From NCBI GenBank assembly GCA_002009975.1, contig MTLP01000007.1:32001-96000 (forward strand): a stretch of 64,000 bases of DNA, written 5' to 3'. The stretch's first letter is position 1. Every line of letters begins with the position of its first letter. Positions 26,836 to 36,635 of this stretch are shown here, in pieces. The stretch is from Thermococcus sp. JdFR-02 (lineage in GTDB: Archaea > Methanobacteriota_B > Thermococci > Thermococcales > Thermococcaceae). Position numbers and translations under genes: made by a program. A model generated the notes under the pieces. The model ran no database searches, had not been told where the DNA came from, and was given only the letters and a program-made list of their open reading frames with translations.

Positions 26836-28383
26836 ATGGGAGCTATAATGGAATTTATTAACTGGTTGGATGGTATGGTTTGGGGTCCTCCCATAATGAT
26901 TTTGCTTGTTGGTACAGGACTCTTCTTAACCATTGCCCTAGGAGGAATTCAATTCCGCAGGATTGGATGGTCAATTAAGTTTACTCTCTTTGAAGGAAGA
27001 AAGAAACAAGGTGAGGGTGATATCACACCATTTCAAGCATTGATGGCAACTATTGCCGGAACAGTAGGTATAGGGAACATTGCTGGTGTTGCAACTGCAA
27101 TTCATCTTGGTGGACCTGGAGCACTGTTCTGGATGTGGGTTACAGCTTTAGTAGGTATGGCAACGAGATACTCAGAGGGTCTCTTAGGTGTTGCCTTTAG
27201 AGGCAAGTTACCAGATGGAACGATGATTGGTGGAACATTTAACTTCCTTGAAAAAGGTCTTTCAGAGGAAAAGATTTCACCGACTGCAAGATATTTAGCA
27301 GCAGCCTTCATGTTTATATTCGCAGTGTTTATAGGCTATGAAGCCCTCGGACTTGCAGGAGGGCTCAAGATTCTGGCAATAATAATTGCTCTGTTCTTCT
27401 TGGCATTAGCGCTCCTTCTTACAAGAGAACAATCACTGCCAAGCCTTGGAAAGACATTAGCAATACTCTTTGCATTATTCGCAGCAATTTCAGCATTTGG
27501 TATAGGTAACATGACCCAAGCTAACTCACTAGCATTGGGAATGAAGGTAGCGTTTAACGTTCCAGAATGGGCAAGCGGAGCATTCTTTGCATTCCTGACA
27601 TTTATAGTCATCGTAGGTGGAATTAAGAGAATCGGTGAGGTTGCAGAAGGATTAGTGCCATTCATGGCAATAATCTACTTCATCTTCGCAATTGGAGTAT
27701 GGATCAAGTTTGCTGGACAATTACCAGGTGCAATTGCGCTAATATTTAAGGACGCATTTACAGGAAGCGCAGTTGCTGGAGGTGCAGTTGGTACGACCAT
27801 AAGGTGGGGTGTTGCAAGAGGTCTGTTCTCCAACGAGGCAGGTCTAGGTACGGCAACGCTTGCTCACGCAGCTGCAAGGACAGATCATCCATCAAGACAA
27901 GCTCACGTTGCAATGCTTGGACCATTTATCGACACACTTATCATCTGTTCACTTACTGGAATTTCAATCGTGGCAACAGGTGCTTGGCAAACAGACAAAA
28001 CAAGTACAGCATTAACCCAAGAAGCATTTGCAAGAGCCTTTGGACACATCGGTGAAATAATGGTCGTTATCGGTGTCATACTCTTCGCATACTCAACAGT
28101 TCTTGCATGGTCATTCTATGGAAGGCAAAACATCATGTACTTGGCTAAGTGGATTGAAGGAGATCCAGAGAAATTTGCAAAGCTCTATCCAAAGCTCCAC
28201 TTGATCTACAACTTGCTGTTCGTGATCTTTATCTACATTGGTGCAACAACAGTTCTTGAAAATGTCTGGACATTCTCAGACATGATGAACGGTCTCATGG
28301 CAATACCCAACTTGGTTGGTTTGATACTGCTTTACACAGTTATCAAGAGATACACAAATGAATTCATTTCGGCGAATCCATGA
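26836..28383 (+). CDS. Alanine/glycine:cation symporter (AgcS/AlsT family)
   Basis: GTVGIGNIAGVATAI, GGPGALFWMW, RGLFSNEAGLG. Confidence 0.93.
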   Translation: MGAIMEFINWLDGMVWGPPIMILLVGTGLFLTIALGGIQFRRIGWSIKFTLFEGRKKQGEGDITPFQALMATIAGTVGIGNIAGVATAIHLGGPGALFWMWVTALVGMATRYSEGLLGVAFRGKLPDGTMIGGTFNFLEKGLSEEKISPTARYLAAAFMFIFAVFIGYEALGLAGGLKILAIIIALFFLALALLLTREQSLPSLGKTLAILFALFAAISAFGIGNMTQANSLALGMKVAFNVPEWASGAFFAFLTFIVIVGGIKRIGEVAEGLVPFMAIIYFIFAIGVWIKFAGQLPGAIALIFKDAFTGSAVAGGAVGTTIRWGVARGLFSNEAGLGTATLAHAAARTDHPSRQAHVAMLGPFIDTLIICSLTGISIVATGAWQTDKTSTALTQEAFARAFGHIGEIMVVIGVILFAYSTVLAWSFYGRQNIMYLAKWIEGDPEKFAKLYPKLHLIYNLLFVIFIYIGATTVLENVWTFSDMMNGLMAIPNLVGLILLYTVIKRYTNEFISANP

Positions 28384-28454
28384 ATTTGAATTTTCCCTAT
28401 TTTTTAATTTTAACTCAAAAGTTTGATTTAAAATATAAATACTGAGGTGATTTT

Positions 28455-29840
28455 ATGAATTTTAAAGAATTTCCCAGGATAGTTGTTAAACCCCCGGGAC
28501 CGAAGGCTAAAGAGTTAATAGAAAGGGAAAAAAGTGTCATCTCTTCTGGTCTTGGAGTTAAACTTTTCCCTGTTGTCCCTGAAAGGGGTTTTGGCGCGTT
28601 AATAGAAGATGTTGATGGTAATATTTTTATAGACTTTTTAGCTGGTGCAGCTGCGGCTTCAACTGGATATGCTCATCCAAAATTAGTAAAAGAAGTTCAA
28701 GAGCAAGTTTCTAAAATCCAGCATTCAATGATAGGTTATACTTACAGCAAAAGAGCAATAGAAGTTGCTGAAATCTTAGCAGAGAAAGCTCCAATTAAAA
28801 ATCCAAAGATACTTTTTGGTTTAAGTGGAAGCGATGCAATGGACTTAACTATGAAAGTCGCCCGTTTTGCAACAAGAAAACCTTGGTTCATCGCCTTTAT
28901 TGGAGCTTATCATGGACAAACCTATGGTGCAACATCCATAGCTGCATTTCAAAGTTCTCAAAAGAAAGGTTTTTCTCCGTTAGTACCCAATGTAGTGTGG
29001 ATTCCATATCCAAACCCCTATAGAAACGTTTGGGGAATTGACGGCTATGAAGAACCTCAGGAGTTGATAAACCGCTTTTTGGACTACCTCGAGAATTACA
29101 TTTTGGCTCATGTTGTTCCTCCTGATGAAGTGGGCGTTTTGATTGCAGAGCCAATTCAAGGTGATGCGGGAATAGTGGTTCCGCCAGAGAACTTCTTCAA
29201 AGAGTTAAAGAAGGTTTTAGAGGAACACGGTATTTTATTGGCAATGGATGAAGTTCAAACTGGAATTGGGAGAACAGGAAAATGGTTTGCAACTGAATGG
29301 TTTGGAGTTGAGCCGGATTTCTTGGCTTTTGGTAAAGGAGTTGCAAGCGGAATGGGACTTAGTGGGGTAATTGGAAGAGCTGAGCTAATGGAAATGACAA
29401 GCGGGAGCGCTTTGCTAACTCCCGCGGCAAATCCAGTGATTTCAGCAGCAGCTTATGCAACGTTAAAAATAATAGAGGAAGAGAAAATAATAGAGAATGC
29501 TCAAAAAGTTGGAGCATTCATATTCAAACGCCTAAAGGAGATGCAGGAGAGATATGAGGTTATTGGAGACGTCAGAGGAAAAGGATTGATGATTGGTGTT
29601 GAGATTGTAAAGCCAAATACCAGGAAGCCAGACCCAGAGCTTACAGGTAAAATATGCTGGAGAGCCTTTGAGCTTGGATTAATTTTGCCGAGCTATGGAA
29701 TGTTTGGAAATGTCATAAGAATAACTCCACCCCTCGTTATAACACAAGAAATAGCAGAAAAAGGTCTAGAGATCATGGAGCAGGCTTTAAAAGATGCTTT
29801 AGCTGGAAAAGTTACTCACAAAGTTGTTACTTGGCATTGA
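28455..29840 (+). CDS. PLP-dependent class-III aminotransferase-fold enzyme, probably a Thermococcales amino-acid racemase (Leu/Met or broad specificity)
   Basis: SGSDA, AEPIQGDAG (Asp where aminotransferases usually have Glu), DEVQTGIGRTG, FGKG; operon with an amino-acid symporter. Confidence 0.75.
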   Translation: MNFKEFPRIVVKPPGPKAKELIEREKSVISSGLGVKLFPVVPERGFGALIEDVDGNIFIDFLAGAAAASTGYAHPKLVKEVQEQVSKIQHSMIGYTYSKRAIEVAEILAEKAPIKNPKILFGLSGSDAMDLTMKVARFATRKPWFIAFIGAYHGQTYGATSIAAFQSSQKKGFSPLVPNVVWIPYPNPYRNVWGIDGYEEPQELINRFLDYLENYILAHVVPPDEVGVLIAEPIQGDAGIVVPPENFFKELKKVLEEHGILLAMDEVQTGIGRTGKWFATEWFGVEPDFLAFGKGVASGMGLSGVIGRAELMEMTSGSALLTPAANPVISAAAYATLKIIEEEKIIENAQKVGAFIFKRLKEMQERYEVIGDVRGKGLMIGVEIVKPNTRKPDPELTGKICWRAFELGLILPSYGMFGNVIRITPPLVITQEIAEKGLEIMEQALKDALAGKVTHKVVTWH

Positions 29841-30185: not shown

Positions 30186-30983
30186 GTGAGGGATGAGTTT
30201 AAAATTATTGTTGAGTTTTTTAATGTTCAGCGGAGTGTTTTCTTTAGTTATCGTTGGGATGTTGTGAGCTACTTTATTGGGCTTTTGATTCAGATCATGG
30301 TCATGGGGATTTTTGCGAGTCTTGTAAGTATAAATGTAAACATTGCAAAATATGGGACCACGAGTTTTCTCCAATTCTTTCTTATTGGTTTTATTGTGCA
30401 CAACCTAATTTTCCTTCCAAGGGGGAGTTTGTCAAGATTTATTGTTGGACGGAGTTTTCCAATGCTTTATGCTTCACCCACAAGTATGCTCACAATATTT
30501 CTCGGAGTAAACGCATGGAACATTGTATGGAGCTTGCTAATTTTAGCTTTAATAACTACGACTTTTGTCCTCTTTTACAAATTAACACTTCACTTGAACT
30601 CTGGAGCAATATTGGTAATTTTGAGCGGTTTTGTTCTAATATTTGCCCTTGATTTGTTCTCTGCGGGATTTAAGGTTGCCACAAAGGCAAGACAAGACCC
30701 CTTAAACTGGTTTTTAAACATTACTTCACAACTTGTGAGTGGCTTGTACTTCCCACCTGAAGCTCTCCCTTGGTGGCTTCAACCAATATCAAAAATCCAT
30801 CCTGAAAGATATATTCTTGAAATGGCGCGCTTAACAATGGGAGGAGGATACTCCCTAAGCCAGATTTATCCAAGCTTAATCAACTTAACTATAACCACCT
30901 TGGCAATGCTCCTTATTGGGTATATAACCTTTAAATGGGGTGTGAAAAAAGCTATGCAACTTGGAACCCTCGGTCACGTTTGA
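30186..30983 (+). CDS. ABC-2 type exporter permease
   Basis: 6 TM; SGLYFPPEALPWWLQPISKIHP motif. Confidence 0.9.
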   Translation: MRDEFKIIVEFFNVQRSVFFSYRWDVVSYFIGLLIQIMVMGIFASLVSINVNIAKYGTTSFLQFFLIGFIVHNLIFLPRGSLSRFIVGRSFPMLYASPTSMLTIFLGVNAWNIVWSLLILALITTTFVLFYKLTLHLNSGAILVILSGFVLIFALDLFSAGFKVATKARQDPLNWFLNITSQLVSGLYFPPEALPWWLQPISKIHPERYILEMARLTMGGGYSLSQIYPSLINLTITTLAMLLIGYITFKWGVKKAMQLGTLGHV

Positions 30984-30992
30984 GGTGATAAA

Positions 30993-31985
30993 ATGATTGA
31001 AGCAATGAACTTGACAAAGTATTATCCACCACCATTCAAGGGTTTCCTCGATTTAAAGAGTCTTAAAGACTTCTTTGGAGCACCAAGAGAAGAAATCCCG
31101 GCTCTGATTGATTTGAACTTCAAAGTTAAAGAGGGCGAAATTTTTGGACTTTTAGGTCCCAATGGAGCTGGGAAGACCACTTTTTGTAAAATTGCCAATG
31201 GATTATTACTTCCTACTCGAGGGCAATTACTAATTAATGGTTATGATAGCGTCAAAGAGCACAAAAAAGTTGCCAAAGATATGTTTACAGTTTTCACTGG
31301 GGAAAGAGATATGTGGGGAATTTTTCAATGGCGCTTAAGTATTTACAAGAATTTACGCTTTATTGCGCGTTTGTGGAAAGTATCTGAGAGTGAAATTAAT
31401 AAGCGGATAAATTATGCTCTGGATTTGCTGAATTTAAAAGAGAAAAGGAATGAGTGGTATCAAAAGCTTTCGGCAGGGATGAAGCAGAAGGTGTATATTG
31501 CTTCCGCATTAGTAATCCAACCAAAAGTCCTTATTTTAGACGAGCCAACAGTGTTTTTGGACATTATAACTAAGAGTGAGATTCACAATGCGATTTTTGA
31601 ACTTGTGAAAGAATTTGGGACTACTGTTATTCTGACCACGCACGATTTGCATGAAGCTGAGAAGTTAAGTGATAGGGTTCTGCTTTTCAGCAAGAAGCCA
31701 ATTCTTGAAGGAAAGCCTGAAGAAATTAGCAAAAGACTTGAAGTTGAGTTCGATAAAAAGGTTGTTGCTCTTGTTAAGGGGAATGTTAAGTGTGATTTTG
31801 GGTTTAAAGTGCAGTGCTTCTCTAAGGACAATGTTACGAGGATTGTAGCTTACTTACGAGAAAGTGAAGTTGCTCAGTTCTTAGATGGATTATCTAAATA
31901 CAAAATTCTAAGTCTTAAAGTTGAAGAATTAACACTCGAAGATGCATTTCTATTAATTTTCAATCATTCTAAAAAAGTAGAATAG
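30993..31985 (+). CDS. ABC exporter ATP-binding subunit
   Basis: GPNGAGKTT, LSAGMKQK, ILDEPT, TTH. Confidence 0.93.
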   Translation: MIEAMNLTKYYPPPFKGFLDLKSLKDFFGAPREEIPALIDLNFKVKEGEIFGLLGPNGAGKTTFCKIANGLLLPTRGQLLINGYDSVKEHKKVAKDMFTVFTGERDMWGIFQWRLSIYKNLRFIARLWKVSESEINKRINYALDLLNLKEKRNEWYQKLSAGMKQKVYIASALVIQPKVLILDEPTVFLDIITKSEIHNAIFELVKEFGTTVILTTHDLHEAEKLSDRVLLFSKKPILEGKPEEISKRLEVEFDKKVVALVKGNVKCDFGFKVQCFSKDNVTRIVAYLRESEVAQFLDGLSKYKILSLKVEELTLEDAFLLIFNHSKKVE

Positions 31986-32064: not shown

Positions 32065-33522
32065 ATGAAAGCAAATGATAAAAAGCTCGAGATTTATATA
32101 TTTACAGTTGAAGATAAGTATTTTCTCCTTTCTCCTCCAACTGGTATAGTTTTTGAAATTGATAGAAAAACTTACGAGTTTTGTAATACTGTTAGTGTAT
32201 TCGGGTGGAGTAAGAGTAAGGAAGAATTTGTGAGGAAATATTCTGAGAGTGATTGGGATGCTTTAATTAGTGAGATTAAGACTGATGAAACTTTGAACAA
32301 AATCTTTTTTGGAGAAAAACCTAAGCCCAACCTTCCTCTTGGAAGTATTAAACCAAAACTCTCAAGCTTATCTTTGAATGTTATGGAGGATTGCAATTTC
32401 GCTTGTGTTTACTGCTATGGTAACGCAGGCACTTATAACACTCCAAACACTAAGATGGATTTTGAAACTGGGAAGAAAGCCATTGATCTTCTTATAAAGG
32501 AAGGAAAGCAAGTTGTTAATATCAGCTTTTTTGGTGGAGAGCCTTTGCTTAACTTTGCACTTATTCAAAAGCTCGTTGCTTACGCTAAAGAAAAGGCTAA
32601 GGAGCATAATAAAACCATCAACTTCAGCATAACAACAAATGGTTATCTTATTAACGATGAAGTTATTGACTTCTTCCTTGAGAACAACTTCACGGTAACA
32701 TTGAGTTTTGATGGCCCAAAGGAAATTCAGGATTATAACAGATCTCTGAGGAGTGGTGCTGGAACTTTTGATGTTGTTTCAAAGAATGCCAAGAAAATGC
32801 TTGAAAAAGGAGTCAAGGTTAGTGTTAGGACCACAATCTTACCAAGCCAGCTTGAAAAGTACTATGACATCTACCGCTTTTTTGTAGATTTCGGGTTTAG
32901 AAGTGTCCACTTGGAAATGGCAACAATAAACGAAAAGCCCACGGAAGAACACATTGCGATAATCAAGGAGGCTCTGGAAAAAATTGCAAAGGATGAGTTA
33001 GGACACTACAAGGAAAAGGGGATAGTTTACACTAAGTTAAGGGATATAGTGAGGAGCATCTACTCCACGGCAGTCAAACAGTATCCTTGTGGTGCAGCGA
33101 GGACTTACTTTGGAGTCTCTGCTGATGGAACTATCTACCCCTGTCACAGATTTGTTGGAATGAGCAATTTTATTGTTGGAGGTGTTGATGACTTCAAGTG
33201 GGAGAACGAGTTTATTCAAAAGATCCTCCACTTCACTGTGGACAAGAGACCCTACTGTAGGGATTGTCCAATAAGGATGTACTGTGGAGGAGGATGTATT
33301 TACAACAACTTCTACTATAATGGCGACATTTTCAAGCCTGATGCGTTTCATTGTGCGTATATGGAAGAGTTGTTTAAGTGGGGTGTTTGGCTCTACTCAA
33401 ACCTTGATGAGGATTGGTTGAATAAGGCTTTTTCACGCTCACCCCGTGAAGGGGTGAGGGATGAGACACAAGCCGATGAATCCGAACAAAAAAGAAAGGG
33501 AGGTGATGGAAGTGGCGTTTAG
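32065..33522 (+). CDS. RRE + radical SAM + SPASM peptide maturase (PapB-like, putative ranthipeptide synthase)
   Basis: N-terminal PqqD/RRE-like beta-beta-beta-alpha segment (YIFTVEDKYFLLSPPTGIVFEID); CNFACVYC; FFGGEPLL; SITTNG; SPASM CGAAR...IYPCHRF...CRDCPIRMYCGGGC...HC; adjacent Cys-rich peptides. Confidence 0.88.
   Translation: MKANDKKLEIYIFTVEDKYFLLSPPTGIVFEIDRKTYEFCNTVSVFGWSKSKEEFVRKYSESDWDALISEIKTDETLNKIFFGEKPKPNLPLGSIKPKLSSLSLNVMEDCNFACVYCYGNAGTYNTPNTKMDFETGKKAIDLLIKEGKQVVNISFFGGEPLLNFALIQKLVAYAKEKAKEHNKTINFSITTNGYLINDEVIDFFLENNFTVTLSFDGPKEIQDYNRSLRSGAGTFDVVSKNAKKMLEKGVKVSVRTTILPSQLEKYYDIYRFFVDFGFRSVHLEMATINEKPTEEHIAIIKEALEKIAKDELGHYKEKGIVYTKLRDIVRSIYSTAVKQYPCGAARTYFGVSADGTIYPCHRFVGMSNFIVGGVDDFKWENEFIQKILHFTVDKRPYCRDCPIRMYCGGGCIYNNFYYNGDIFKPDAFHCAYMEELFKWGVWLYSNLDEDWLNKAFSRSPREGVRDETQADESEQKRKGGDGSGV
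33421..33511 (+). repeat. Precursor-upstream element, copy 1 (overlaps the rSAM 3' end)
   Basis: Similar to 36631-36704; contains hairpin CTCACCCC-gtgaa-GGGGTGAG. Confidence 0.6.
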
Positions 33523-33664
33523 AAAACTGAACAAAGAAAGAGAGACAATATCACCACTATGTGCGTGGGTTGATATCTGCATAGACTACGACTATTGTGT
33601 TTGGGACGATTGTGGAAAGTTTGATGTATGTATATATGACAACTGCCTTGCGGATACTGATTAA
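33512..33664 (+). CDS. RiPP precursor peptide 1 (50 aa; 6 Cys, 9 Asp)
   Basis: GGAGGTGA SD, GTG start: MAFRKLNKERETISPL-CAWVDICIDYDYCVWDDCGKFDVCIYDNCLADTD. Confidence 0.85.
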   Translation: MAFRKLNKERETISPLCAWVDICIDYDYCVWDDCGKFDVCIYDNCLADTD

Positions 33665-33688: not shown

Positions 33689-33862
33689 ATGTTTAAAAAG
33701 CTTAATAATAAAAGCCAAAAGACCCAACCATCTCCTGAATGGTGCATTGACATCTGTATAGGTGGCGATGTATGTGGAGCATGTGATACAGCATGTGATC
33801 AGAATGACAGTTGTATTACAGATGGATGTATATTTGACTGTTATTTAGACATTACACCCTGA
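33689..33862 (+). CDS. RiPP precursor peptide 2 (57 aa; 8 Cys, 8 Asp)
   Basis: GGAGGTG SD, ATG: MFKKLNNKSQKTQPSPEW-CIDICIGGDVCGACDTACDQNDSCITDGCIFDCYLDITP. Confidence 0.88.
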   Translation: MFKKLNNKSQKTQPSPEWCIDICIGGDVCGACDTACDQNDSCITDGCIFDCYLDITP

Positions 33863-33905: not shown

Positions 33906-34793
33906 ATGGTGAGGAGAATGCTCAGAGTATTCATCAAAAAAGCACTGTATGATAGAACTGTAATTCTTGGTGTTTGTCTTTTTCTCATATTCTACTTTAA
34001 TATCCTTTTGGGAGTGAAGAACTCTACTTATTTTGAAAGCTGGCAATACTCAAAACTTGTTCTTAACTATTTTAGCGACATGCCTTCAATAGTTATTTTA
34101 ATCTTTGCAAGCATTTGGGGTTCAAGAAGCATAAACACCGAGTCTTTGCCATTGATTTTAAGTAAACCCCTTTCTCGATATAATTACTTACTTACAAAAG
34201 CCATGTCCTCTTTTTTATTCTTTTTAGCTTTGTCTCTCTTGTTATATCCAATTTTATTACTTTCTTCTCTTGCTTTTGGGACCTCTATCAGCTTAAACCT
34301 GAGCTTTGTACTAATATTTGCTCTATTTCTCTCTGCTTTCTATTCTATTGGTATGCTCATCTCAACTATAACTTCTCCTAAAAAAGCTCCTGTAGTAGCA
34401 CTCATTATAGTTATCTTATTTGTATACCTAGAATCTACATTTCACCATACAATTGAAAAAGAAGTGCTGAGGATGTACAATATTACCCAATATGATATGG
34501 CAAGATATTTTGCTACTAACGAAAAAATCTTTTGGAAAATTTCAAGTGACATATTTGCTCTTAAAGTCAAGAAAAGCTGGGAACAGTTTTTTAATCCTTT
34601 CACCCACTTTAGAATTTTGTTAACATATATAATGAGCAATGGAAACTTATGGAATTACTACCATTCTCCTGAAATATATTCTATATTCCAAATGCCTATA
34701 AAAGCGTGGAGAGCCTTGGGTTTTCTAATTCTCGATACATTATTACCATTAGTTATAACATTAAAAATCTTTAATCAAAAAGATTTAAGGTGA
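33906..34793 (+). CDS. ABC-2 type exporter permease
   Basis: LILSKPLSRYNYLLTK motif; C-terminal FNQKDLR. Confidence 0.85.
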   Translation: MVRRMLRVFIKKALYDRTVILGVCLFLIFYFNILLGVKNSTYFESWQYSKLVLNYFSDMPSIVILIFASIWGSRSINTESLPLILSKPLSRYNYLLTKAMSSFLFFLALSLLLYPILLLSSLAFGTSISLNLSFVLIFALFLSAFYSIGMLISTITSPKKAPVVALIIVILFVYLESTFHHTIEKEVLRMYNITQYDMARYFATNEKIFWKISSDIFALKVKKSWEQFFNPFTHFRILLTYIMSNGNLWNYYHSPEIYSIFQMPIKAWRALGFLILDTLLPLVITLKIFNQKDLR

Positions 34794-34797
34794 TAAC

Positions 34798-35715
34798 ATG
34801 TGGTCGTTCAAGCTTGAAGCAAAGAACAGCTTGAGAACTAAAAAGTTTTGGTTAACAATAGTGCTGATCTCTCTAGTGTACGTTATAGCCTTTAGGGAGA
34901 TAAAGGACAACCTTAAAGCTACTACTAACCTCCAGGGGGTGTTGACTTTCAGTCTAATAGGCTATATACTTGCGAGTGCTTTTTTGTTCATAGGGTTATA
35001 TGTCCTTATTTTAGGAGCTACATCAATCAACGGTGACCTTGAAAATGGAACGGTTCAGATATCCTTAAGCAAGCCTGTTAATAGAATACAGTATCTAATC
35101 GGAAAGTTTCTTGGACAGTTCGTTTCAATCATTGTTGCACTTCTTTTCGCTACACTCCTTTCTCTTGTCATAACAAGATACTACAGCATATCCATAACAG
35201 TCAAAATAATTTCTGATCTTACAATAGCCAATGCTCTCACGCTCCTCTCAATGCTTCAGCTACTCGCACTCGGCTTACTTATCTCAACCTTCATTCGCTC
35301 TCAGAACACTGCTATCAGCGTTGTTCTCATCCTCTTCCTTGTTACCGGATTGGTGGCACCTCAAATAGTCGACAGCATGGCAAAAGACAGAGCTAGAGAA
35401 GAGTTCCACATCAAAACACCTGAAGATGCCATGAAGATGCCTGTTGAGGAACGCAACAAGTATCACCAACGTCAAATAGAACTCCAGAAGGAGTACCACT
35501 TAAGATACCTGTTCTACATTCCTCAAGTGCTCCTTGAGGATATAGTGATAGATATGCAGAGAACCACTTTTATCAAGGGGAAGATCAGAACAGAGTATAT
35601 CAGGGCTTGGGACGCCATCAAGAACAATCCTTTGAGGGTCTCTCTTCTTGTGGGACTAACCTTGGTCTATCTAATCATGGCAGTTTTTCGCTTTGTTAGA
35701 ATGGACCTGAGGTGA
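34798..35715 (+). CDS. ABC-2 type exporter permease
   Basis: DLENGTVQISLSKPVNRIQYLIGKFLG; C-terminal FVRMDLR. Confidence 0.88.
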   Translation: MWSFKLEAKNSLRTKKFWLTIVLISLVYVIAFREIKDNLKATTNLQGVLTFSLIGYILASAFLFIGLYVLILGATSINGDLENGTVQISLSKPVNRIQYLIGKFLGQFVSIIVALLFATLLSLVITRYYSISITVKIISDLTIANALTLLSMLQLLALGLLISTFIRSQNTAISVVLILFLVTGLVAPQIVDSMAKDRAREEFHIKTPEDAMKMPVEERNKYHQRQIELQKEYHLRYLFYIPQVLLEDIVIDMQRTTFIKGKIRTEYIRAWDAIKNNPLRVSLLVGLTLVYLIMAVFRFVRMDLR

Positions 35716-36635
35716 CAATTGTGTTGAGAATTGAGAATCTAATCAAGATTTACAAGGATATTAGGGCTTTGGATGGCTTGAATTTGGAGGTTAAAGAGGG
35801 GCAGATTTACGGATTTTTAGGACCTAACGGTGCCGGGAAGACAACAACAATCCTGAGCATTCTTGGAATGATATTCCCGCAGAAGGGCAGGATAGAAGTG
35901 CTAGGTGAGGAAGTCTTCAACGGAAAGTTCGATGAAGAGAAGCTCATCAAAGTCAAGTACATGATTGGTTACATGCCTGAGGACGCTACACTCTGGGATT
36001 TTTTAACGCCAATGCAGACGCTTGACATTATTGGTGAAGCTTTTAAAATGTCCAAAGCAGAGAGGCAAAAACGCTCAGAGGAGCTTTTAAAGCTCGTCGG
36101 CTTATGGGACGTCAAAGATAAAAAAGTTGGCAAGCTCTCAAAAGGAATGCGCCAGCGTTTATTGTTGGCACAGGCGCTCATTAATGATCCAGAACTTTTA
36201 ATCTTGGACGAGCCCATGAGCGGATTAGATCCAAAAGGTATTGCTGAATTCAAAGAGTTGATTAGGCAGTTCAACAAGGAAGGAAAAACAGTCTTCTTTT
36301 CATCGCACATCTTAGCTCATGTCGAAGAAATCTGCGACACTGTTGGCGTTATTGTTAAAGGAAAGCTGAGAGCCCAAGACTCTTTGGACAATATTAAAAA
36401 AGAGTTCTTAAGACGGGCTGGCCACACGATACTGATTGAGACAAACAAACCCATCCATATAGATCTTGAGGGAGTCAAAGTTGAGGTTATTGGTACTAAT
36501 AAATACAGGATTATCACAAGCAAAGATGTTAGGGAAGAACTCCACGACTTGATAGCAGTTCAAAACGCAAAAATTCTAACAATGCAGATTAAAGAGCCGA
36601 GCTTGGAAGAAATATTCCTAAAAATGATCGAATAA
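35712..36635 (+). CDS. ABC exporter ATP-binding subunit
   Basis: GPNGAGKTT, LSKGMRQR, ILDEPMSGLDP, SSH. Confidence 0.93.
   Translation: MTIVLRIENLIKIYKDIRALDGLNLEVKEGQIYGFLGPNGAGKTTTILSILGMIFPQKGRIEVLGEEVFNGKFDEEKLIKVKYMIGYMPEDATLWDFLTPMQTLDIIGEAFKMSKAERQKRSEELLKLVGLWDVKDKKVGKLSKGMRQRLLLAQALINDPELLILDEPMSGLDPKGIAEFKELIRQFNKEGKTVFFSSHILAHVEEICDTVGVIVKGKLRAQDSLDNIKKEFLRRAGHTILIETNKPIHIDLEGVKVEVIGTNKYRIITSKDVREELHDLIAVQNAKILTMQIKEPSLEEIFLKMIE

What the first reader, a model, noticed from the sequence alone, without database searches (positions are those of the whole stretch)
33689..33862. Precursor 2: exact 8 Cys : 8 Asp stoichiometry with predicted interlocked rings
The core CIDICIGGDVCGACDTACDQNDSCITDGCIFDCYLDITP can be paired one-to-one: C1-D3, C5-D9, C11-D15, C14-D19, C18-D22, C24-D27, C29-D32, C33-D36. 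That mixes CXD, CX2D, CX3D and CX4D spacings, with an overlapping central triad. The CGACD..CDQND segment recalls the interlocked motifs of freyrasin. Eight crosslinks (-16 Da) of variable ring size from one enzyme would exceed freyrasin's six. The pairing itself is inference.
Basis: partly seen in the sequence, partly recalled or inferred. Interest (0 to 1): 0.75.

Follow-up and report, generated by a model that had tools for sequence, protein, structure and literature searches.

The report
Archaeal multi-stapled cysteine-aspartate peptide
This tiny gene of a Thermococcaceae archaeon encodes a peptide with eight cysteines and eight aspartates that the neighbouring radical enzyme likely staples pairwise into up to eight sulfur-bridged rings, three of them predicted to interlock, making it an unstudied archaeal variant of a known class of stapled peptides.

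Summary
The gene follows a CteB/PapB-like radical SAM-SPASM enzyme, between ABC exporters, in a Thermococcaceae genome. In 18 precursors from 9 genomes, 113 of 113 Cys can take a distinct downstream Asp/Glu (shuffles 80±3.5). Five held-out peptides give 30 of 30. Only 2 of 381 Cys-rich small ORFs in the genome pass, both precursors. Direction is Cys to downstream acid. Exact 8:8 is not conserved: relatives have 5-7 Cys, often spare Asp. The CxxCDxxCD triad occurs in 3 of 23. The CXD and CX4D rings are the weakest part. Enzyme and peptide miss the PapB and freyrasin family cut-offs and form a separate archaeal clade. PapB already makes variable and nested rings in vitro, and an archaeal ranthisynthase is published. 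Verdict: a ranthipeptide-type precursor, new variant of a known kind; crosslinks and function untested. The scan noted this family before on another Thermococcus genome (e1-5265662).

The parts
33689..33862 (+). Precursor 2 (57 aa): the finding
   Evidence: ORF with ribosome site; member of a family of 23 peptides; no Pfam match and no NCBIfam match above cut-off
33689..33742 (+). Leader, 18 aa, basic (net +3), MFKKLN...P just before the first Cys; predicted RRE-binding part
   Evidence: F2, L5 and a Pro invariant in 18 precursors; Pro 2-3 residues before the first Cys in 18 of 18; resembles the PapA leader printed in PMC10739248, by eye only
33743..33859 (+). Core, 39 aa, 8 Cys/8 Asp, net -8; predicted rings: CXD x1, CX2D x3, CX3D x3, CX4D x1
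33773..33808 (+). C11-xx-C14-D15-xx-C18-D19-xx-D22 segment, predicted three interlocked rings
   Evidence: overlap forced; CxxCDxxCD in 3 of 23 peptides, the only ones with any CxxC
33512..33664 (+). Precursor 1 (50 aa from GTG; 6 Cys, 9 Asp; all rings can be in-line); start overlaps the enzyme's last codons
32065..33522 (+). Radical SAM/SPASM maturase with N-terminal RRE-like domain, CX3CX2C (C110/114/117), seven SPASM Cys, catalytic-proximity residues Y-F-T-S-H-R
   Evidence: NCBIfam best rSAM_PapB 279.9 bits, cut-off 340; best PDB match CteB, E 2.6e-58, from residue 17; model pLDDT 86, Foldseek top 5WHY; residues
33438..33458 (.). Perfect 8-bp inverted repeat with 5-nt variable spacer at the 3' end of the enzyme gene, about 55 nt before precursor 1; candidate cis element
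   Evidence: conserved in 12 of 12 aligned loci, one G-U-compatible change, no compensatory change; single copy in the genome at up to 3 mismatches
30186..31985 (+). Upstream ABC-2 permease (30186-30983) and ATPase (30993-31985)
   Evidence: same pair upstream of the enzyme in most close loci, not in G045 or G089
33906..36635 (+). Two ABC-2 permeases and an ATPase (33906-34793, 34798-35715, 35712-36635): predicted exporter
   Evidence: similar genes follow the precursors in most close loci

Best explanation
The gene encodes a leader-plus-core peptide that is likely the substrate of the radical SAM/SPASM enzyme just upstream, which is predicted to join each core cysteine's sulfur to a downstream aspartate, giving up to eight thioether rings. 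Shown: the ORF, the gene order, the enzyme's fold and motifs, and the family-wide pairing rule with its direction. Inferred from PapB and CteB: the RRE holds the FKKLN leader; the Cys thiol binds the open iron of auxiliary cluster I (seven SPASM Cys); His361/Arg362 hold the Asp carboxylate; the adenosyl radical removes H from Asp C-beta; an S-C-beta bond forms (-2 Da each). An unlinked protease would then cut near the conserved Pro and the ABC-2 exporter would release a rigid, polyanionic, heat-stable peptide. Its most likely role is a strain-specific signal or weapon between neighbours (about 50%, inferred from hypervariable cores and patchy spread).
For: 113 of 113 Cys in 18 precursors match a distinct downstream D/E, shuffles 79.7±3.5, max 90. 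Non-redundant 16 cores: 100 of 100 vs 71.5±3.4; five held-out peptides: 30 of 30 vs 21.0±1.8. D/E enriched at +3 (55/113) and +4 (44/112). Last Cys has a downstream Asp in 18 of 18, first Cys an upstream Asp in 2 of 18. Glu fills in for Asp in three peptides, as PapB allows (PMC8172795). In five orthologue pairs 3 of 70 Cys/Asp codons changed residue (32 synonymous) against 52 of 117 other core codons (pairs not all independent). Enzyme closest to the ranthisynthase CteB; 4 of 6 proximity residues equal CteB's (PMC10288494); His-Arg as in PapB H377/R378 (PMC10739248). PapB links CX0D to CX6D and nested motifs on minimal substrates (PMC9413430). An archaeal ranthisynthase modifies CAVD and CAGD motifs (PMC13692751). 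Sister clades use CX3D/E and CX4D cores.
Against: No crosslink was observed. Offsets +2 and +5, needed for C1-D3 and C14-D19, are depleted in the family (12/113 vs 28.8 and 13/106 vs 21.1 expected). A review reports that PapB on mutated PapA did not process CX4D and mostly not CX2D (PMC8172795), so this enzyme must differ from PapB. CteA carries one ring on six Cys (PMC8326336) and the CrpA fragment at most four of six, as a mixture. GggB and QmpB look like ranthisynthases yet link C-alpha. No protease, regulator or immunity gene was recognised in the window's cluster. The held-out peptides were found with a profile of the family, which favours the pattern, and kin are not independent.
Confidence: 0.75

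Rival explanations
1. The enzyme closes only the easy rings (CX2D, CX3D). C14, and perhaps C1, stay free or react partly, so the product has 6-7 rings with no triple interlock, and free thiols plus carboxylates may bind a metal.
For: +2 and +5 offsets depleted. PapB favoured CX3D over alternatives in nested substrates and failed on CX4D in PapA. Partial modification in CteA and CrpA. The G089 orthologue can be matched in-line using its Glu and two CX0D rings.
Against: Every Cys in 23 peptides has its own acid, with no orphan. CXD and CX4D are forced in peptides with a single possible matching. Clade C has Asp at +5 of the first core Cys in 9 of 9. In all 3 triad peptides both inner Cys are followed by Asp.
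Confidence: 0.13
2. Same pairs, but the sulfur goes to the acceptor's alpha-carbon (non-hairpin sactipeptide, like GggB/QmpB products).
For: Such enzymes resemble ranthisynthases in sequence and proximity profile (PMC10288494).
Against: Acceptors are exclusively Asp/Glu, the hallmark of PapB/QhpD chemistry next to a side-chain carboxylate. The His-Arg pair is kept.
Confidence: 0.06
3. The peptide is an unmodified small metalloprotein (Fe-S or Zn through CX2CX3C) or a disulfide-rich acidic peptide.
For: C11/C14/C18 has the CX2CX3C spacing of part of a ferredoxin motif (recalled, not from a call). The core is acidic. CrpA was proposed to bind metals.
Against: CxxC occurs in only 3 of 23 relatives. 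Cys number is odd in 11 of 18. No Pfam match in the query at E up to 1. No confident fold, pLDDT 46 (weak evidence). A conserved leader and position right behind the enzyme in 9 of 9 close loci.
Confidence: 0.03
4. Rings run backwards: each Cys joins the Asp two residues upstream (D-x-C), as NxxcB links to an upstream Asn.
For: D/E at -2 is the strongest single offset (59 of 95, z 8.8). An upstream acceptor exists in NxxcA.
Against: First Cys has Asp at -2 in 1 of 18, while the last Cys has a trailing Asp in 18 of 18. D-x-C is better read as a one-residue linker between in-line rings.
Confidence: 0.03

Closest known systems
Freyrasin, PapA/PapB (Paenibacillus polymyxa)
   Same: Leader plus Cys/Asp core; Cys N-terminal to acceptor; in-line and nested rings; Glu tolerated; His-Arg after the auxiliary-cluster Cys; best NCBIfam match.
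   Different: Archaeal host. Native spacing mostly CX2D with CX3D, CXD and CX4D rather than six CX3D. 5-8 Cys, 1-3 precursors per locus, hypervariable cores. Enzyme below the PapB cut-off and in a separate clade. No match to NF037957. Three-ring chain rather than a nested pair.
Thermocellin/SCIFF, CteA/CteB
   Same: Closest solved structure; RRE-rSAM-SPASM layout with seven SPASM Cys.
   Different: SCIFF peptides are highly conserved and Asp-poor, with one Cys-Thr ring reported. Their enzymes have His-Gln and form another clade.
CrpA/CrpC of Methanococcus voltae (PMC13692751)
   Same: Archaeal SPASM enzyme with seven SPASM Cys making ranthionine links, including a CX2D motif; Cys precedes acceptor.
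   Different: CrpA is a 28.8-kDa repeat protein. CrpC is TIGR04463, which this enzyme matches at 95.5 bits against a cut-off of 525.
QhpD/QhpC
   Same: One enzyme makes Cys-Asp and Cys-Glu links.
   Different: Acts on an enzyme subunit; no dehydrogenase genes here; TIGR03906 254.8 bits against 453.
Subtilosin-like sboA/albA clusters of Thermococcus (bioRxiv 10.64898/2026.07.27.741052)
   Same: Predicted radical-SAM thioether peptide in Thermococcales.
   Different: Three-Cys hairpin sactipeptide with Phe/Tyr acceptors; not this family.

Membership tests
Ranthipeptides (class) | Adjacent radical SAM enzyme with SPASM domain and RRE | tested here: met
   Pfam Radical_SAM and SPASM; alignment and fold match to CteB including the N-terminal domain
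Ranthipeptides (class) | Auxiliary cluster I with an open site (seven SPASM Cys) | tested here: met
   C342, 360, 398, 401, 407, 411, 430, invariant in 17 homologues; open site inferred from the count
Ranthipeptides (class) | Catalytic-proximity residues of the ranthisynthase group | tested here: inconclusive
   Y-F-T-S-H-R against CteB F-F-T-S-H-Q; the paper's scoring figures were not visible, and GggB/QmpB are exceptions
Ranthipeptides (class) | Precursor with leader and Cys donors paired to acceptors | tested here: met
Ranthipeptides (class) | S to non-alpha carbon thioether in the product | not testable with these tools
   needs MS/MS and NMR
Freyrasin/PapB family | Enzyme passes NF047865 cut-off | tested here: not met
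   279.9 bits against 340
Freyrasin/PapB family | Precursor matches NF037957 | tested here: not met
   0 of 18 at E up to 1; bacterial control L054 hits at 17.8 bits, itself below the cut-off of 30
Freyrasin/PapB family | All rings CX3D | tested here: not met
   no complete matching at +3..+5; 3 of 8 rings CX3D
Freyrasin/PapB family | Enzyme groups with PapB-named proteins | tested here: not met
   Thermococcaceae clade 100/98 apart from P0071+L054; PapB itself not in the tree, backbone weak, no AU test
SCIFF (TIGR03974) | Enzyme passes cut-off; conserved six-Cys peptide | tested here: not met
   254.8 bits against 425; separate clade
Ferredoxin or Zn-binding small protein | Conserved CxxC ligand set, family match | tested here: not met
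   CxxC in 3 of 23; no Pfam match for the query

The most novel reading that the evidence does not exclude
A hyperthermophile-specific lineage of ranthisynthases natively closes every Cys onto its own Asp/Glu whatever the ring size. On this peptide it makes eight rings of four sizes, including a chain of three interlocked thioether rings. Thermococcaceae swap such hypervariable stapled cores as strain-specific signals or weapons. The enzyme would be a heat-stable, spacing-agnostic peptide stapler.
Probability: 0.4. Interest if true: 0.62.

Novelty: new variant of a known kind. Interest (0 to 1): 0.42.

Why it matters
It gives a natural test of how a ranthisynthase chooses acceptors. Published results for PapB differ (strict CX3D on mutated PapA, CX0-6D on minimal peptides), and here evolution has produced 23 substrates with mixed spacing and a forced triple overlap. 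The family is annotated only as hypothetical proteins, in named Thermococcus species, so product and role can be tested in culture. A thermostable, promiscuous stapling enzyme would be useful for peptide engineering. The chemistry class itself is known.

Tried and rejected
Single-sequence searches found little: the precursor found only itself, and the genome-contig scan with the enzyme gave one locus. The metagenome scan returned mostly SCIFF loci; 2 of 80 showed Cys/acid precursors by my filter (L037, L054). Complex prediction of enzyme residues 1-100 with the precursor: no verdict, score 0.23 against a mark of 0.32. No RNA holder listed. AlphaFold of the peptide: pLDDT 46, not searched further. 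ESM Atlas hits 0.82-0.84 to Bacillota Cys-rich bacteriocin-precursor clusters, lead only. Rfam: two chance-level hits. Promoter and terminator scan uninformative. Plasmid tblastn: no match. The inverted repeat hit 24 viral contigs, not examined because the script machine was lost. The supplement search of PMC10288494 found no Thermococcus, but no 'PapB' either, so it is uninformative. I could not find the PapA core sequence as text, so the freyrasin comparison rests on papers' descriptions and on L054. Row labels in the tree ending GA/GV/GM come from a pattern catching the wrong Cys; the residues used are. Rejected: exact 8:8 as the conserved feature, backward D-x-C rings, an all-disulfide or ferredoxin reading, and PapB-family membership.

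Full report
Observation. Window 33689-33862 (+) encodes 57 aa: an 18-aa basic leader and the core CIDICIGGDVCGACDTACDQNDSCITDGCIFDCYLDITP with 8 Cys and 8 Asp. With Cys fixed, 0.5% of 20,000 shuffles allow a complete map. Of 381 six-frame ORFs of 35-80 aa with at least 5 Cys in the genome, 2 pass: this one and its neighbour.

Context. The order on + is: ABC-2 permease and ATPase, a 485-aa radical SAM/SPASM gene (32065-33522), precursor 1 (33512-33664), precursor 2, then two ABC-2 permeases and an ATPase. Flanking genes are archaeal, and the nearest named enzyme homologues are from Thermococcus. The enzyme's best NCBIfam match is rSAM_PapB at 279.9 bits, under the cut-off of 340; no maturase family among the 25 shown is passed. 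Its best solved relative is CteB by sequence (E 2.6e-58, from residue 17, so including the RRE region) and by fold (pLDDT 86, Foldseek E 4e-30). It has the SAM-cluster triad, seven SPASM Cys, and Y118-F156-T191-S214-H361-R362 at the six catalytic-proximity positions. CteB has F-F-T-S-H-Q there (PMC10288494; passages and section 7). PapB's modelled carboxylate binders are H377 and R378 (PMC10739248; passages).

The family. 17 of 99 genomes of the order match the enzyme at E 1e-40. Nine, counting the window's own, carry it at 68% identity or more, each followed by one to three small ORFs with the leader (F/L)(K/R)(K/R)L(N/T/G)...P: 18 peptides. A profile of these found 10 of 133 genomes of the class and 12 proteins among 1.84 billion, five with new cores. 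Named members are hypothetical proteins of T. celericrescens, T. indicus, T. thermotolerans and Thermococcus sp.. In trees of 95 and 32 enzymes the Thermococcaceae proteins form one clade (100/98), apart from the SCIFF clade and from a PapB-named protein with its metagenomic partner L054. PapB itself was not in the tree and the backbone is weak.

All 113 Cys of the 18 peptides can be matched to distinct D/E at +2..+6 (shuffles 79.7±3.5, max 90 in 1000). After removing 7 of 23 cores over 60% alike: 100 of 100 against 71.5±3.4. The five held-out peptides: 30 of 30 against 21.0±1.8 (they were found with the family profile). D/E is enriched at +3 (55/113) and +4 (44/112) and depleted at +1, +2 and +5; the strongest offset is -2 (59/95). 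The edges settle the direction: the last Cys has a trailing Asp in 18 of 18, the first Cys an upstream Asp within six residues in 2 of 18. So D-x-C is a linker between rings. In three peptides Glu is needed to complete the map. In five orthologue pairs, 3 of 70 Cys/Asp codons changed residue and 32 changed silently, against 52 of 117 other core codons (one peptide is used twice). The G089 orthologue has 7 Cys and 7 Asp: the segment holding C29 and D32 is replaced, losing both. A low-depth strain variant shows three listed changes in precursor 2: two silent, one Ile to Leu.

What does not hold. Cys equals Asp in 12 of 18, and counts run from 5 to 8, with this peptide the only 8 among 23. So 8:8 is the upper end of a general one-acid-per-Cys rule. 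Most relatives can be drawn with in-line rings only; overlap is forced here and in G045. CxxCDxxCD occurs in 3 of 23, two of them orthologues. The freyrasin likeness is fair: PapA has in-line and nested CX3D motifs (PMC9413430; abstract and parts 1-2 of 5), and the bacterial precursor at L054 has CxxCDxxD twice and a weak hit to the freyrasin-like model. Here a further Cys extends the pair to a chain of three, at the price of one CX4D ring. None of the 18 archaeal peptides matches that model.

Mechanism. Shown: sequence, gene order, enzyme fold and motifs, pairing rule and direction. Inferred from PapB and CteB: leader bound by the RRE, Cys on the open iron of auxiliary cluster I, carboxylate held by His-Arg, H removed from Asp C-beta, S-C bond formed, -2 Da per ring and -16.13 Da for eight. 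Inferred with less support: leader cut near the conserved Pro by an unlinked protease (none recognised in the cluster), export by the ABC-2 system, and a role as strain-specific signal or weapon (hypervariable cores, patchy spread, cassette turnover). On whether one enzyme can do all sizes, the literature differs. PapB completed CX1D to CX5D on minimal peptides and partly CX0D and CX6D, but a review reports failure on CX4D and mostly on CX2D in mutated PapA (PMC8172795; passages). Sister clades here have native CX3D/E and CX4D cores. An archaeal enzyme modifies CAVD and CAGD motifs, though only up to four of six Cys in the fragment seen (PMC13692751; abstract, part of results, sections 12 and 14). 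CteA has one ring on six Cys (PMC8326336; passages). I put thioether stapling of Cys to downstream Asp at about 0.9 overall, and all eight rings exactly as drawn at about 0.5.

Novelty. It works like freyrasin but fails the PapB-family tests, so I file it as a new variant of the ranthipeptide kind. No paper in the held library has both 'Thermococcus' and 'ranthipeptide', and searches (listings only) showed no study of this family. Archaeal ranthipeptide clusters are mentioned generically from antiSMASH surveys (PMC12144867; passages), and a different, subtilosin-like Thermococcus cluster is described (bioRxiv 10.64898/2026.07.27.741052; passages). PMC12373016 was seen as passages. Most subscription papers and large supplementary genome-mining tables were not visible and may list these loci. 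It came after my reading was formed; I differ in not filing the system inside the freyrasin family. Interest 0.42: real, well supported and easy to test, but known chemistry.

Noticed in passing
window 33438-33458: Perfect 8-bp inverted repeat with a variable 5-nt spacer inside the enzyme's low-confidence C-terminal tail. It is kept in two enzyme subclades only about 40% identical, is single-copy in the genome, and was duplicated together with an extra precursor in two genomes. Operator or mRNA hairpin; no compensatory change seen.
   Followed up: partly
L024:5500-5607, L136:427-703: A copy of the enzyme's last ~35 codons sits before a third precursor in G018 and G057, suggesting precursor cassettes are added by recombination at the enzyme's 3' end. 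The G057 copy is frameshifted, in a degraded locus.
   Followed up: partly
run X6 contig, leaves the window at 33511: About 93% identical enzyme DNA runs into a different precursor start, pointing to cassette exchange between near strains.
   Followed up: no
L010, L018-L020 (clade B); L032-L036 (clade C): Two sister Thermococcaceae systems. Clade B has one four-Cys precursor with CX3D/E motifs and Gln-Arg in the enzyme. Clade C has one to three two-Cys precursors with CX4D then CX3-5E, next to an MFS-like transporter.
   Followed up: partly
L024:5638-6036, L026:8227-8616, L028:8503-8895: A ~125-aa protein with a signal-peptide-like start lies among or after the precursors in three genomes and was not seen in the window's cluster; candidate immunity or binding protein.
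   Followed up: no
L124:1477-1665 (G042): Precursor almost identical to one of G074, beside transporters but with no close enzyme found in that genome; its clade C enzyme has an internal stop.
   Followed up: partly
L037:4146-4500: Metagenome locus with a 36% identical enzyme and two precursors with a similar LNKK leader but fewer acid partners, followed by an ABC exporter.
   Followed up: no
window 26836-29840: Amino-acid carrier and alanine/serine racemase-family gene just upstream on the same strand; not seen beside the cluster in the relatives examined.
   Followed up: no
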